DNA from: Callorhinchus milii
Lineage: Eukaryota
Length of the DNA stretch: 64,000 bases
Assembly (NCBI RefSeq): GCF_018977255.1
Contig: NW_024704742.1
Coordinates: 71,736,001 to 71,800,000 of the forward strand
Reading direction: 5' to 3'
Shown: positions 15,520 through 30,739 of the stretch, one piece after another
How the letters are laid out: every line of letters begins with the position of its first letter
Numbering within the stretch: position 1 is the stretch's first letter
The notes under the pieces: model-generated
What the model saw: the letters and a program-made list of their open reading frames with translations, nothing else
What the model was told of the DNA's origin: nothing
The model's database searches: none
Position numbers and translations under genes: made by a program

Positions 15520-17588
15520 CTGGGGAGCCCTGAGACGCAAGTGACTTTTATCTTTTAACTAAAACCTGTTTACAGGGAGGAAGAAAAGCCGGCGTATTGT
15601 TAGGCTGGAGGGAATTCTTGGCACCAAATCTATTCATTACACACAACGCCCACAAGGAGGGAGGCAGAGATTACAGTGTCACAGTCTGGGCTGTGAACTC
15701 AGTCCGTGGTCAATGGGCACATCATTAAGGAAAGCAGGAGAGAGCAGGGAATGGGATGACAGTAGAGAGTTCCAGTGGAGGAGTGAGCACCAGCACAGAC
15801 ACAATGGGGAGAGAGCAGGGAATGGGATTACTACAACAACAAACAAAATTACATTTGTAAAACACCTTTAATGTCGGGAGGACATCCCAAAGTGCTGGAC
15901 AGACAGAGTTTCGGACGCGAGCTGGGGATCCAGGAGGGTAGAGGGGAGGGTGGGAAGGCGGTTGATCGAAGAAGAGGGTCTTGAGATGGGTCTTGAAGGT
16001 GGCAAGAGAAGGGGCGAGGTGGAGGGACTGCGGGATGGAGTTCCAGAGGGTGGGGGTCAGAGTGGGGGAAGGCCTACCCGCCAATAGTGGGGCGAGCAAG
16101 GCGGGGGACATGAAGCAGGCTGAGTGGAGGGAGCGAGCAGGATGGTGGGGGTTAAGATGTCGCAGAGGTAGGTGAGCAAGACTGGAGGGCTCTGAAGGTG
16201 AGGACCAGGATCTTGAACTGTATCCTCTGTGCTTAAATCCAGATCATAATGCCAGGTTTGGGTTAGGGTTTGGGGCATCCCTTCATTTTATTCCTTGTGA
16301 TACTTAAAGAAAGATACATACAGTACTATATAATTCACAGGATTTACTGTAAAGTAAGTTGTTAAGCACTCCGAGACAATACCCCACGTGAAGGGCACTA
16401 CATTAATGCAAGTTGACAGTGCTTTCAATGACAAACTATGTGGTTTCAGCTGGTGAGACTCCAGCAGTTACCCCAATGCACACTCTGGGGTCCCCAAGCC
16501 TTGGCTCTTGCCAACCTGGGCCTAATACTCCCCGGAATTAGGTAAACAGGATGCGTCCCTCCAGGGAGAGAGTGTGTATTCCATTCCAACAATCTTTCTC
16601 TGGGATTTCCAAGTGTAGGTGGATTCTGTTTAGGTTTGGGTGTATTCCTGTACCTCAGTGGGAGAGGAGGGGAGGGGGAGAAGAACACTCGCCTCTCAAG
16701 TGAAAGACCTGGGTTCAATTCCCAGCAGGGCAAAACCTTGGGCAAGTTTCCTTACTTCACAACTGATAATAATCCCTCAAGAAGAAAAAACAATAATAAT
16801 TTAGTCACTCATCCACGACTGTTTATGGGATACTGCTGTGTGCAATTGGCTGCCGCGTTTCACCCACAAAATATATAGTCAATTCACTTTACAGTCTATT
16901 CTGTGAAGCGCTTTGAGACGTCTAGAAGACGTGAAAAGTGCTATATCAAATGCAAGGATTATTATATTTCATCTTATAAAAATAATAATAATCCTTGCAT
17001 TTGATATAGGGCCTCATTATGTTGTTTAGATGTCTCAGAGCGCTTCATAGAATATACTGTAAAGTGGAGTAATTGCATATTTTGTAGGCGATACATGGCA
17101 ACCAATTGCGCACAGTAGTGTCCCAAAGGTGTCCCTTCTTAAGCATGTCGATAGGTTTCCAGATGTGTCAGACACCCAGCTGACCAAACAAAAGAGCATG
17201 TTAAAGTCTAGTCTCTGTGCGTATCATTGGAAAACCGCGGCAGCCAATTTATAGGCAGCAATGTCCCACAAACAGTCACGGAGTGAGTGACCAATATTAG
17301 CTGGGGGATTGTTGGCCAGGAAAACAGGAGAGAGAAACTCCCTGCTCTTTTCCAACAGCACCGCAGGGTCTTTAACATCCATTTGAACAGGTACAGGCAG
17401 AGGAGATCGGTTTAATGTCTCGGCCCAAGGATCTCCCCTCCCGGCAACACAGCTGAAGCACTCCGAGATGCTATCCTGCATGAAGTGCTCTGTGGAAATA
17501 CAAGTTATTGTGAACTCTTAAGACTCTGATACAGGGTTTTAGCCCACAAACATTCTGACTCTGATCTCTCCTATTCCCATGTTCACAG

Positions 17589-17701
17589 CTTCTCGATCTG
17601 TTCATCAAGTGGGACTGGTCCACCTACTTTGCTGACTATGGGCAGCCAACCTGCAAGTACCTGCGTGTGAACCCAGCCACTGCCCTCATCCTGCTTGAGA
17701 A
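17589..17701 (+). CDS. EXOC6B: EXOC6B penultimate constitutive coding exon (113 nt)
   Basis: ttcacag|CTTCTCGAT...CTTGAGAA|gtaagt. Translates LLDLFIKWDWSTYFADYGQPTCKYLRVNPATALILLE(K), matching the Sec15/EXOC6B C-terminal region. Not in the ORF track. Confidence 0.95.
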
Positions 17702-18668
17702 GTAAGTCATCTCCTGTTAGCCCCGCAAGCCAAAACCCTAACAGGAAGGGTAGTCCGAGCTGGACATGCAGCGGGAAGCTTGTCAGACAGATATTGCACT
17801 ATTAGCTGGTTAAACTCCAGCAGTAACGCCCAACATCCCCTAAACCTTGGCTTTCACCAATCTGCGGCTAACACTCTCCCAGGTTACGTGAGCAGGGTGT
17901 GTCCCTGTAGGTCTGTGTGTTACTCCTCACTGGACTTCCCAACTCTTCCCTCCACAATCTGCAGATTATTCAGAACACTGCAGCTCGTGTCCTCTCCCGC
18001 ACCAGGCTCTGGGAACCTATCACCCCAGTTTTTGCCCGGCTTCACTGGCTCTCTATTTCTCAGAGAATCGAGTACAAAACCCTCGTTCTTACCTTCAAGG
18101 CCCTCCATGGTCTTGTCCCCCTAACTCCTACCTCATAACCCCATCTCAGCCTGTCCACCGGCCTGATTCAGGTCCCCCGCACTTCCCGTCCCACCATTGG
18201 TGGACGGGCATTCAGCATCTCTGCCCCCACACTCTGGAACTCTATCCCACAATCCCTCTGCCTCACCCCCTCGCTTGCCTCCTTCAAGGCATGCCTGAGA
18301 CTTTCCTCTTGGTCCGTGCCTTCGGCCACCCTCCCATCCCCACCCCCCTGCCCTCTCCTCTAACCCCAACTCTCAGCTCGGGTCTAAAACTCCTGATTGT
18401 CCAGTGCCCTGGACAATCCGACCTGACAGGCGCTATACAAGTGTAATTTGTTGTTGTTATGCTCACTGGTATTGTGTGGGTCTGTGTATCAGACTCCTGT
18501 AAAGTGAGGTCTGTATTTAACACTATTTCACACTGTGGTACATTCCAGGTGTGTATAGTACTGCATATAACATTCCAGTAGTGTATATACTGTATATATA
18601 ACACTGCAGTATATTAATCCTCCTCACACTAACCTATGTTCTCTCTTTTATTCCTGCCGCGTGTCAAG

Positions 18669-18680
18669 GATATCTAGAGC
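18669..18680 (+). CDS. EXOC6B: Candidate 12-nt alternative microexon of EXOC6B (inserts ISRA)
   Basis: CACTAAC branch point (18627-18633), pyrimidine tract, TGC at 18655-18657, caag|GATATCTAGAGC|gtaagt. Phase 2/2, reading K-I-S-R-A-M with no stop. Confidence 0.8.
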
Positions 18681-19002
18681 GTAAGTACAGCCCCTACCTT
18701 CCCGTAGGAAATTGATCATAAAGTCATAGGGGTGGGGAGAAAATGGTGTGTGATGTGCTAATTCTCACAAGGATAAAAGATCTCTACTCTAATCCCATTC
18801 TCTGCTCTCTCCCCATCGTGTCTGTGCTGGTGCTCGCTCCCCCACTGGAGCTCTCTACTCTAATCCCATTCCTCGCTCTCCCTACACCCTCTTCCTCTAT
18901 ACTCTTTCAAGTATCCGGTTCCTTTCAATATGGTAAAGGGTCGGAGCCTGAATAAATCCTTGAACCTTTATGGCCGTCCTGACCATTTCTCTCTTCCCTC
19001 AG

Positions 19003-19135
19003 GATGAAGGACACGAGCCGAAAGAACAATGTCTTTGCCCAGTTCCGCAGGAACGAGCGGGACAAGCAGAAACTGATCGACACTGTAGCGAAGCAACTGC
19101 GGAGTCTCATCAACAGCAACAGCACGGCCCAATGA
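19003..19135 (+). CDS. EXOC6B: EXOC6B last coding exon
   Basis: cttccctcag|G ATG AAG GAC...; (K)MKDTSRKNNVFAQFRRNERDKQKLIDTVAKQLRSLINSNSTAQ* with TGA at 19133-19135. Phase matches the upstream exon. Confidence 0.95.
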
Positions 19136-23494: not shown

Positions 23495-23940
23495 AGTTCT
23501 CAAGGGCACTGCAGATGACAGCTCAGCCCAGCCTGGATCTTCGGCAGGACTTGGGAATGGCAGACCAGTCACTGGAGGCAAGGAATCCTTCCACTCGGCT
23601 CCTGTTAACCCTGCAAGCCAAAGCCCTAAGGGGCAGGGTGATCCTAGGTGGACAAGCCAAACAGTGCTCTAAATGGCAAGCCATGTGGTTTTAGATGGTT
23701 AGACTCCAGCAGTTACCCCAACGCACACTCTGGGGTCCCCAATCCTTGTCTCTTGCCAACCTGTACCTGATACCCTCTGGAATTAGGTAAACAGGATGTG
23801 TCCCTCCAGGGAGAGTGCATTCCATTACAATAATCTATCTCTGGGATTTCCATGTGTAGGTGGGATACATGGAATTCTCAGCTTGGTTTGGATACTCTTA
23901 AACATGGTGATGGGTTTCCACATGTCAGACAGCCGGCTGG
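23495..23940 (+). repeat. Unclassified interspersed repeat, most complete copy
   Basis: Shared with about 5730-5990, 7668-8290, 10262-10515, 16425-16640, 17715-17905 and 53790-53900. Confidence 0.75.
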
Positions 23941-24913
23941 TGGGAGCTTGGTTTAACGTCTCATCTGAAGGATGAAACGTCCAACAATCCAGCTTCGGCC
24001 CAGCACTGCCCTGGAGCATCAATCTTGACTGAGTTTAAAGTCTCCGAAGTGATCCTATGACTTTCTGACCGAAAGGCCAGATCATAAGAGATCGGGCAGG
24101 GATGGTGCTTACAGTGGAGTCCTATAGTTTAATGGTTAGACGCTGGCGAAACCATAGGCAAGTTTCCTTACTCCACACGCCTCTATTTACCGAGCAGTAA
24201 GTAGAAACCCAGTTGTTAGTCGATTGGTTGATCGCTTTCCAGGGTCGGGGGGGAATAATCTTCAAAACAAATTGTTTTTACGTTATATTCTGTGAAGCGC
24301 TTTGAGACGTCTGAATGATGTGATAAGGTGCAACATCAAATGCAAGGATTAGTATTATTATTACATGACCAGTTGGTACAGTATTTGGGAGATCTCACAG
24401 TTTGTGTGACCAACACTGAGCACAAGTATACAGCAGCCAAGAAAAACAGAGTCAGAGTAAATTAGGCTTCAGTGAGCTGGGATTTAGGTGACAACCTCTG
24501 TAATGAGCCGTTAATCTACCTGGAATTCGCCAGTGATTAGCGAGGCTCCCAGACACGGTTGTTTAAGCAAAGGGTCACCGGCAGGTCAGAGCAGAGGTGA
24601 CGTTGGGTCACCTGCGCGTGGCTCAGACGCTAGCACTCTCGGTTCTGGGTCAGGAGGTCATGGGCTCAAGCCCCACAACGGGCACTTTGACCTGGCAGTC
24701 TCCGCGCTCTCTCCAGCGCAGTAATGGGGGCAGACCGCATTGTTAGAGACTTTTGGATGAGACAATGGCAACAACAACAAATTACATTTACACAGTGGTT
24801 TTTTGCATTGGGAGGACGTTCCAAGGTCCTGGACAGTCAGGGATTTACACCCGAGCTAGGGGTTGAGATCAGGAGGGATGGTGCGCCACGAAGGTAGTCA
24901 TAGAAGGGTGACC
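23609..24913 (+). repeat. Left arm of a 1.3-kb near-identical inverted duplication
   Basis: Reverse complement of 29413-30714; the ORF track also shows identical peptides at 24533-24724(+) and 29601-29792(-). Confidence 0.95.
24572..24660 (+). promoter_or_regulatory. DR5 + DR4-like + DR2 nuclear receptor motif cluster (duplicated, inverted, at about 29665-29753)
   Basis: GGGTCA ccggc AGGTCA (24572-24588), AGGTGA cgtt GGGTCA (24595-24610), GGGTCA gg AGGTCA (24647-24660). Confidence 0.6.
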
Positions 24914-29412: not shown

Positions 29413-30714
29413 GGTCACCCTTCTATGACTACCTTCGTGGCGCACCATCCCTCCTGATCTCAACCCCTAGCTCGGGTGTAAATCCCTGACTGTCCAGGAC
29501 CTTGGAACGTCCTCCCAATGCAAAAACCACTGTGTAAATGTAATTTGTTGTTGTTGCCATTGTCTCATCCAAAAGTCTCTAACAATGCGGTCTGCCCCCA
29601 TTACTGCGCTGGAGAGAGCGCGGAGACTGCCAGGTCAAAGTGCCCGTTGTGGGGCTTGAGCCCATGACCTCCTGACCCAGAACCGAGAGTGCTAGCGTCT
29701 GAGCCACGCGCAGGTGACCCAACGTCACCTCTGCTCTGACCTGCCGGTGACCCTTTGCTTAAACAACCGTGTCTGGGAGCCTCGCTAATCACTGGCGAAT
29801 TCCAGGTAGATTAACGGCTCATTACAGAGGTTGTCACCTAAATCCCAGCTCACTGAAGCCTAATTTACTCTGACTCTGTTTTTCTTGGCTGCTGTATACT
29901 TGTGCTCAGTGTTGGTCACACAAACTGTGAGATCTCCCAAATACTGTACCAACTGGTCATGTAATAATAATACTAATCCTTGCATTTGATGTTGCACCTT
30001 ATCACATCATTCAGACGTCTCAAAGCGCTTCACAGAATATAACGTAAAAACAATTTGTTTTGAAGATTATTCCCCCCCGACCCTGGAAAGCGATCAACCA
30101 ATCGACTAACAACTGGGTTTCTACTTACTGCTCGGTAAATAGAGGCGTGTGGAGTAAGGAAACTTGCCTATGGTTTCGCCAGCGTCTAACCATTAAACTA
30201 TAGGACTCCACTGTAAGCACCATCCCTGCCCGATCTCTTGTGATCTGGCCTTTCGGTCAGAAAGTCATAGGATCACATCGGAGACTTTAAACTCAGTCAA
30301 GATTGATGCTCCAGGGCAGTGCTGGGCCGAAGCTGGATTGTTGGACGTTTCATCCTTCAGATGAGACGTTAAACCAAGCTCCCACCAGCCGGCTGTCTGA
30401 CATGTGGAAACCCATCCCATGCTTTAAGAGTATCCAAACCAAGCTGAGAATTCCATGTATCCCACCTACCATGGAAATCCCAGAGATAGATTATTGAATG
30501 GAATGCACTCTCCCTGGAGGGACACATCCTGTTTACCTAATTCCAGAGGGTATCAGGCACAGGTTGGCAAGAGACAAGGATTGGGGACCCCAGAGTGTGC
30601 GTTGGGGTAACTGCTGGAGTCTAACCATCTAAAACCACATGGCTTGCCATTTAGAGCACTGTTTGGCTTGTCCACCTAGGATCACCCTGCCCCTTAGGGC
30701 TTTGGCTTGCAGGG
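29413..30714 (-). repeat. Right arm of the inverted duplication, ending at the assembly gap
   Basis: Reverse complement of 23609-24913, with a few mismatches/indels near the gap end. Confidence 0.95.
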
Positions 30715-30739
30715 NNNNNNNNNNNNNNNNNNNNNNNNN
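30715..30739. other. Assembly gap (25 N)
   Basis: Run of N. Confidence 1.

What the first reader, a model, noticed from the sequence alone, without database searches (positions are those of the whole stretch)
18620..18690. 12-nt EXOC6B microexon with SRRM3/4-type (neural) splicing signals
Seen: CACTAAC branch point, pyrimidine tract, UGC 12-14 nt upstream of the exon, AG acceptor, 12-nt exon, consensus GTAAGT donor, and phase compatibility giving LLEK-ISRA-MKDT. Established: SRRM3/SRRM4 microexons have a UGC motif near the 3' splice site and are enriched in vesicle-trafficking genes. From memory, a slightly longer mammalian EXOC6B isoform exists; unverified. Gene predictors usually miss such exons, and its presence here would date it to at least the jawed-vertebrate ancestor.
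Basis: partly seen in the sequence, partly recalled or inferred. Interest (0 to 1): 0.7.

Follow-up and report, generated by a model that had tools for sequence, protein, structure and literature searches.

The report
Known neural EXOC6B microexon in chimaera
This is a real 12-base optional exon of the vesicle-tethering gene EXOC6B, included in one transcript and skipped in others, likely switched on in nerve cells by SRRM3/4 as its likely human counterpart is, and it is ordinary because it is already annotated in this species.

Summary
Observation confirmed. Window 18669-18680 (+) is a 12-nt frame-preserving cassette exon between the last two coding exons of EXOC6B (LLEK-ISRA-MKDT). One public contig includes it exactly; two skip it, one only marginally bridged. 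Tissue is not on record. The flanking exons are 100% identical to Callorhinchus milii RefSeq models, and isoform X1 already carries ISRA, so it was not missed by annotation. The insert occurs in catshark, lungfish, teleosts, amphibians, reptiles, birds and human. The likely human ortholog HsaEX0023494 is a published SRRM4 target: PSI 1.7 to 98.4 on SRRM4 expression, about 4 in non-neural tissue. SRRM3/4 control in this species is inferred, not shown. One addition: teleost EXOC6, the paralog, has a similar 4-aa insert at the same site, so the exon may predate the EXOC6/EXOC6B duplication; its human copy is retina-enriched and barely SRRM4-responsive. Lamprey models lack it (0 of 16). AlphaFold predicts a longer penultimate helix; the effect is unknown. 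A word search of the scan's notes found no earlier report on other DNA. Already known; interest 0.15.

The parts
17589..17701 (+). EXOC6B penultimate constitutive coding exon (LLDLF...LLE plus two bases of the Lys codon); donor GTAAGT at 17702
   Evidence: 100% to C. milii model; contigs lie on it; start inferred from the AG at 17587-17588
18627..18633 (+). predicted branch point CACTAAC, branch A at 18632 (-37)
   Evidence: sequence; use as branch point inferred
18634..18654 (+). polypyrimidine tract with UCUC elements (-29, -27)
   Evidence: sequence
18655..18657 (+). UGC motif, predicted SRRM3/4 response element (-14 to -12)
   Evidence: sequence; role from bioRxiv 10.1101/2024.09.17.613571
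18666..18668 (+). AAG acceptor
   Evidence: used in the X6 contig
18669..18680 (+). 12-nt cassette microexon, phase 2-2, adds ISRA
   Evidence: included in X6, skipped in X7 and X8; RefSeq X1 vs X2; orthologs
18681..18686 (+). consensus donor GTAAGT
19003..19135 (+). coding part of the last EXOC6B exon, stop TGA 19133-19135

Best explanation
It is a 12-nt cassette microexon in the last intron of EXOC6B (Sec15B) that is included in some transcripts and skipped in others, is likely switched on in neurons by SRRM3/4 acting at the UGC 14 nt before it, and is predicted to lengthen the penultimate helix of the protein. Steps: (1) shown: the exon is spliced in or out and keeps the frame. (2) Inferred: without SRRM3/4 it is skipped because it is short and has a distant branch point and a weak AAG acceptor; SRRM3/4 promotes early spliceosome assembly there and, with the strong donor, gives inclusion (about 0.85 for this species; shown for the likely human ortholog). 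(3) Predicted: the four residues extend the second-last helix and shift the basic C-terminal helix (about 0.5). (4) Speculative: this tunes a partner or membrane contact of the exocyst in neuronal secretion (about 0.25); a small or no phenotype is quite possible.
For: Inclusion contig X6 (846 nt, 118 and 229 letters on the two sides), skipping contig X7 (2170 nt), marginal skipping contig X8. RefSeq C. milii X1 149 aa with ISRA and X2 145 aa without. Same-site inserts ISRA/ISRS/ISRV/ISRE/IHRV across jawed vertebrates. This site was the only 4-aa indel in 24 pairwise comparisons of close EXOC6B isoforms, which supports equating it with the 12-nt human event HsaEX0023494. That event: PSI 1.7 to 98.4 on SRRM4 expression (PMC7935315 supplement); mean 4.1 in seven non-neural tissues, 5.6 in progenitors, 34.3 in day-50 neurons, 0 to 61 in induced xenografts. 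Architecture matches the published description, and shark-to-mammal orthologs of other microexons respond alike to SRRM4. AlphaFold on caecilian isoforms: helix 753-773 with the insert, 753-762 without.
Against: No tissue label for any run, so neural bias is untested here. Only 1 of 8 runs laid shows inclusion, and contigs give presence, not level. exoc6b had 0 hits in the supplements that list zebrafish neural exons, although zebrafish models carry ISRS. The paralogous human EXOC6 exon shows that regulation can change between lineages. UGC is neither necessary nor specific (74-79% of targets). The human event was matched by gene, length and uniqueness, not by coordinates. The model region just after the insert has pLDDT near 50, and the two alignments differed in content.
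Confidence: 0.85

Rival explanations
1. Real microexon, but in this species driven mainly by another regulator (Musashi in photoreceptors, or a muscle or endocrine programme), as for the human EXOC6 paralog exon.
For: Human EXOC6 HsaEX0023471 (12 nt) is retina-enriched (PSI 39 vs 3.65 neural), dPSI 10.8 and 82 in two MSI experiments and 0 to 10.6 in eight SRRM3/4 experiments. Two UAG motifs lie at +25 and +47 downstream here. exoc6b not found in the zebrafish neural exon tables.
Against: The window's exon is in the EXOC6B clade, whose human exon is strongly SRRM4-responsive; the UGC and UCUC elements are in the expected place; two UAGs in 150 nt is no enrichment.
Confidence: 0.11
2. Real exon included at a low, tissue-independent level, with no regulated role.
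For: Human non-neural tissues show PSI 2-9; tissue of X6 unknown.
Against: In X6 the only bridging contig shown is the inclusion form; length and I-x-R pattern are kept across jawed vertebrates; human inclusion is switch-like.
Confidence: 0.03
3. Chance splice-like motifs in an intron, never used.
For: The motif scan was post hoc; contigs of X1 and X2 read unspliced across the site.
Against: Exact inclusion contig, RefSeq model, orthologs. Unspliced contigs are expected from pre-mRNA or DNA.
Confidence: 0.01

Closest known systems
C. milii EXOC6B-like isoform X1, RefSeq XP_007910234.1
   Same: Identical translation over both flanking exons and the ISRA insert; X2 (XP_007910235.1) is the skipped form.
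   Different: None seen; it is a predicted model with no tissue or regulator information.
Human EXOC6B microexon HsaEX0023494 (chr2:72182894-72182905; PMC7935315 supplements)
   Same: Same gene, 12 nt; human isoform NP_001308659.1 has ISRE at the same site.
   Different: Last residue E instead of A; SRRM4 response and neuronal bias are measured in human, only inferred here; the match was not checked by coordinates.
EXOC6 paralog microexon (zebrafish DreEX0031112, human HsaEX0023471)
   Same: 12 nt; teleost EXOC6 models carry VYRG/VHRG at the same site (43 rows); zebrafish exon is neural (PSI 92.7) and drops by 32 in the srrm3 mutant eye.
   Different: Other paralog; the human copy is retina-enriched, MSI-responsive and almost unresponsive to SRRM3/4. 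That these two events are the VYRG site is inferred from gene and length.
SRRM3/4-dependent neural microexon programme
   Same: 3-27 nt, frame-preserving, UGC between branch point and AG, distant branch point, strong donor, vesicle-traffic gene, conserved from shark to mammals.
   Different: No difference found.

Membership tests
SRRM3/4-dependent neural microexon | Exon of 3-27 nt | tested here: met
   12 nt, 18669-18680
SRRM3/4-dependent neural microexon | Cassette behaviour: both included and skipped | tested here: met
   X6 includes, X7 skips, X8 skips with only 30 letters on one side; RefSeq X1/X2
SRRM3/4-dependent neural microexon | UGC between branch point and AG, near the 3' splice site, after UCUC elements | tested here: met
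   TGC at -14, TCTC at -29/-27, branch A at -37; definition
SRRM3/4-dependent neural microexon | Strong 5' splice site; branch point and pyrimidine tract set back from the AG | tested here: met
   GTAAGT donor, 57-nt AG-free zone, AAG acceptor; judged by consensus, no MaxEnt score computed
SRRM3/4-dependent neural microexon | Neural or endocrine-biased inclusion in this species | not testable with these tools
   Tissue of runs not on record; met for the likely human ortholog in published tables
SRRM3/4-dependent neural microexon | Inclusion depends on SRRM3/4 in this species | not testable with these tools
   Needs a minigene or knock-down; likely human ortholog dPSI 96.7 on SRRM4 expression
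SRRM3/4-dependent neural microexon | Deep vertebrate conservation | tested here: met
   Inserts in chondrichthyan, lungfish, teleost, amphibian, reptile, bird and mammal models
EXOC6B (Sec15B) orthologs | Groups with EXOC6B, not EXOC6 | tested here: met
   Quick ML tree: 11-row EXOC6B clade SH-aLRT 99 holds the 149-aa fragment; EXOC6 clade 100. Careful search did not finish; fragment fills 18% of columns.
Musashi-dependent retina exon | UAG enrichment downstream and retina-specific inclusion | tested here: inconclusive
   Two UAG in 150 nt downstream; retina data not available

The most novel reading that the evidence does not exclude
The microexon arose once in the single ancestral vertebrate Sec15 gene, before the duplication that gave EXOC6 and EXOC6B, was kept in both copies, and was then rewired: the EXOC6B copy stayed an SRRM3/4 neural switch, while the EXOC6 copy, neural and Srrm3-dependent in zebrafish, became a Musashi-responsive retina exon in human. 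The pair would be a natural experiment in how a microexon changes regulator, with the chimaera sequence close to the old state.
Probability: 0.5. Interest if true: 0.35.

Novelty: already known. Interest (0 to 1): 0.15.

Why it matters
It confirms that a catalogued SRRM4-responsive microexon in an exocyst subunit, with its splice signals, is shared by chimaeras and humans. That level of conservation is expected for this class, so it changes little. What remains open is the function of the four residues, for which my searches found no dedicated paper, and whether the EXOC6 and EXOC6B microexons are one ancestral exon with diverged regulators. EXOC6B matters clinically (SEMD-JL3, ciliogenesis; PMC12089063 passages), but nothing here ties the microexon to disease.

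Tried and rejected
No whole genome is held, so SRRM3/4 genes and the rest of EXOC6B could not be searched. No listed run is on record as RNA. Runs X1-X4 showed no contig across the junction and the tables were flooded by intron repeats; X5 had none either; these blanks are no evidence. Lamprey search returned one divergent EXOC6B-like gene: 0 of 16 models covering the site, in 4 species, have the insert, 1 more was truncated; other lamprey copies, hagfish and amphioxus were not identified, so dating beyond jawed vertebrates rests on the paralog alone. Tetrapod EXOC6: 0 of 8 frog models and 0 of 2 rodent fragments carry an insert. Among 145 distant representatives, 69 aligned across the site, 26 had exactly the short length and none had a clear homologous insert. 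Solved structures: only 2A2F and yeast 5YFP/6VKL; the 2A2F match ends at human residue 693, before the insert at 726-729. Paper searches for EXOC6B or EXOC6 with microexon gave only circRNA papers (listings only), and HsaEX0023494 gave 0 main-text hits. Supplements of PMC12868881 (1 file) and PMC12626420 (12 of 13 files) had no EXOC6/6B rows. No complex prediction was run, as no binding is claimed. Rejected: 'missed by predictors', and a chance motif cluster.

Full report
Observation. The upstream exon ends at 17701 and the last exon starts at 19003. Both splice paths keep the frame: LLEK-ISRA-MKDT and LLEK-MKDT. A combined motif scan hit only this site on both strands of the window, and 6 of 2000 intron shuffles and 1 of 60 window shuffles; the pattern was chosen after seeing the site.

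Gene and species. The upstream exon's best hit among 593 proteins was Callorhinchus milii EXOC6B-like at 100%. Its cluster has two members, RefSeq X2 (145 aa) and X1 (149 aa, XP_007910234.1), which differ by exactly ISRA. Both flanking exons match X1 at 100%. The window is therefore most likely elephant shark, and the microexon is already in its annotation. A quick ML tree puts the fragment in the EXOC6B clade (SH-aLRT 99, careful search unfinished).

Direct splicing evidence. Fourteen runs were listed, none on record as RNA; 8 were laid. X1-X4 gave no contig across the junction; X1 and X2 had unspliced contigs over the microexon. Of X5-X8, an 846-nt contig of X6 runs upstream exon, microexon, last exon; a 2170-nt contig of X7 joins 17701 to 19003 with GT..AG ends; a 293-nt contig of X8 does the same with only 30 letters on one side, just under the tool's 31-letter rule; X5 had none. 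So 3 of 8 runs are informative: 1 inclusion, 2 skipping. X6 is from another study than X7 and X8, tissues are unknown, and contigs show presence only.

Conservation. With a query blind to the insert plus cluster members, 25 of 209 proteins had a 4-aa insert at this site, 152 had none, 11 had another ending and 21 did not match the pattern. With a query holding the insert, all of the best 120 of 874 hits had one (biased by design; 119 by pattern, the catshark row by eye): ISRA in catshark, lungfish and several teleosts, ISRS in cyprinids, ISRV in birds, turtles and caecilians, IHRV/IYRV in Xenopus, ISRE in squamates and mammals including human NP_001308659.1. Same-species pairs exist with and without it, and it was the only 4-aa indel in 24 pairwise comparisons. 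Forty-three of the 120 rows are teleost EXOC6-type proteins with VYRG or VHRG at the same site. Any exon in this intron would insert here, so position alone proves little; equal length and the shared I/V-x-R-x pattern favour common origin. Against or open: 0 of 16 lamprey models of one divergent gene, 0 of 8 frog EXOC6 models and 0 of 2 rodent EXOC6 fragments have it. Distant Sec15 proteins show no clear homologous insert, so skipping is likely the ancestral state.

Regulation. In PMC7935315 (passages and supplementary rows seen) human EXOC6B HsaEX0023494, 12 nt, goes from PSI 1.7 to 98.4 on SRRM4 expression (HEK293 by the legend, file matched by its columns), averages 4.1 in seven normal non-neural tissues, and rises from 5.6 in progenitors to 34.3 in day-50 neurons. 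I equate it with ISRE by gene, length and uniqueness, not by coordinates. bioRxiv 10.1101/2024.09.17.613571 (passages and section 10 seen; supplements not seen) describes the architecture found here, reports UGC in 74-79% of targets and not strictly necessary, and shows conserved SRRM4 responses from shark to mammals. PMC12626424 (passages, 12 supplementary files searched) lists zebrafish exoc6 DreEX0031112, 12 nt, neural PSI 92.7, human ortholog HsaEX0023471 not regulated alike, and has no exoc6b row. PMC9303857 (passages, 12 of 18 supplementary files) lists human EXOC6 HsaEX0023471 as retina-enriched (39 vs 3.65 neural), MSI-responsive and almost unresponsive to SRRM3/4, and the zebrafish exon down 32 points in srrm3 mutant eye.

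Protein effect. Only a fragment of the shark protein was at hand, so caecilian isoforms were folded. With the insert (763-766) the penultimate helix is 753-773; without it 753-762, then a low-confidence loop; the last helix is kept. Mean pLDDT of residues 761-770 is 82 against 64; 771-780 is near 50 in both; the alignments differed, so this is a prediction only. The site lies beyond the solved Drosophila Sec15 fragment 2A2F, which I recall as the Rab11-binding domain (recalled, no call). A review states that Exoc6 interacts with Rab11 and Rabin8 (PMC12089063 passages). The most likely role is fine tuning of a tail contact in neuronal secretion; it is untested. The title of PMC12626420 reports minimal impact of removing microexons in larval zebrafish (listing only).

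Verdict. Shown: a real, alternatively spliced, frame-preserving 12-nt exon of EXOC6B conserved across jawed vertebrates. Inferred: neural, SRRM3/4-driven inclusion in this species (0.85). Already known in RefSeq for this species and, likely, as a human SRRM4 target. Searches for a paper devoted to this exon found none, in a library that lacks most subscription journals. The boldest reading left is a pre-duplication origin with regulator hand-over between EXOC6 and EXOC6B (0.5). Interest 0.15.

Noticed in passing
window 57058-56961 (-), gap 30715-30739, repeats 23609-24913 and 29413-30714: EXOC6B exon 1 (ATG 57058, with GC-box repeats and two TGACGTCA motifs upstream) lies on the minus strand, while the last exons lie on the plus strand; no other exon was found in the window. 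A 25-N gap separates them, and a 1.3-kb 99.4% inverted duplicate ends at the gap. Most likely a scaffolding error; a true inversion is unlikely because spliced contigs run about 1.8-2.2 kb upstream of the penultimate exon.
   Followed up: partly
window 5198, 14631, 24572 (DR5, +); 11452, 24647 (DR2, +); 29753, 29678, 32895, 63050 (-): Strict retinoic-acid-response-like direct repeats (no chance control). The sites at 29753 and 29678 are mirror copies of 24572 and 24647 inside the inverted duplicate and should not be counted twice.
   Followed up: partly
proteins P0208, P0058, P0013, P0053, P0256 (not in the window): EXOC6B models show a second optional insert of 10 aa after FTHLP and a one-residue Q variant, so the gene likely has another short cassette exon and a tandem acceptor.
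   Followed up: no
proteins P0328, P0342, P0332: A mite Sec15 reads LYRG right after LLEK, and two unnamed proteins LVRG and LDRG, much like the EXOC6 microexon VYRG, without extra length. Speculative: the microexon began as a duplicate of the last exon's acceptor and first four codons.
   Followed up: no
window 18675-18680: An internal AG in the microexon could define a 3-nt exon ending at the same donor; no contig or protein model seen uses it.
   Followed up: no
proteins P0466-P0488: The divergent lamprey EXOC6B-like gene has C-terminal isoforms that differ by 5-aa repeat units.
   Followed up: no
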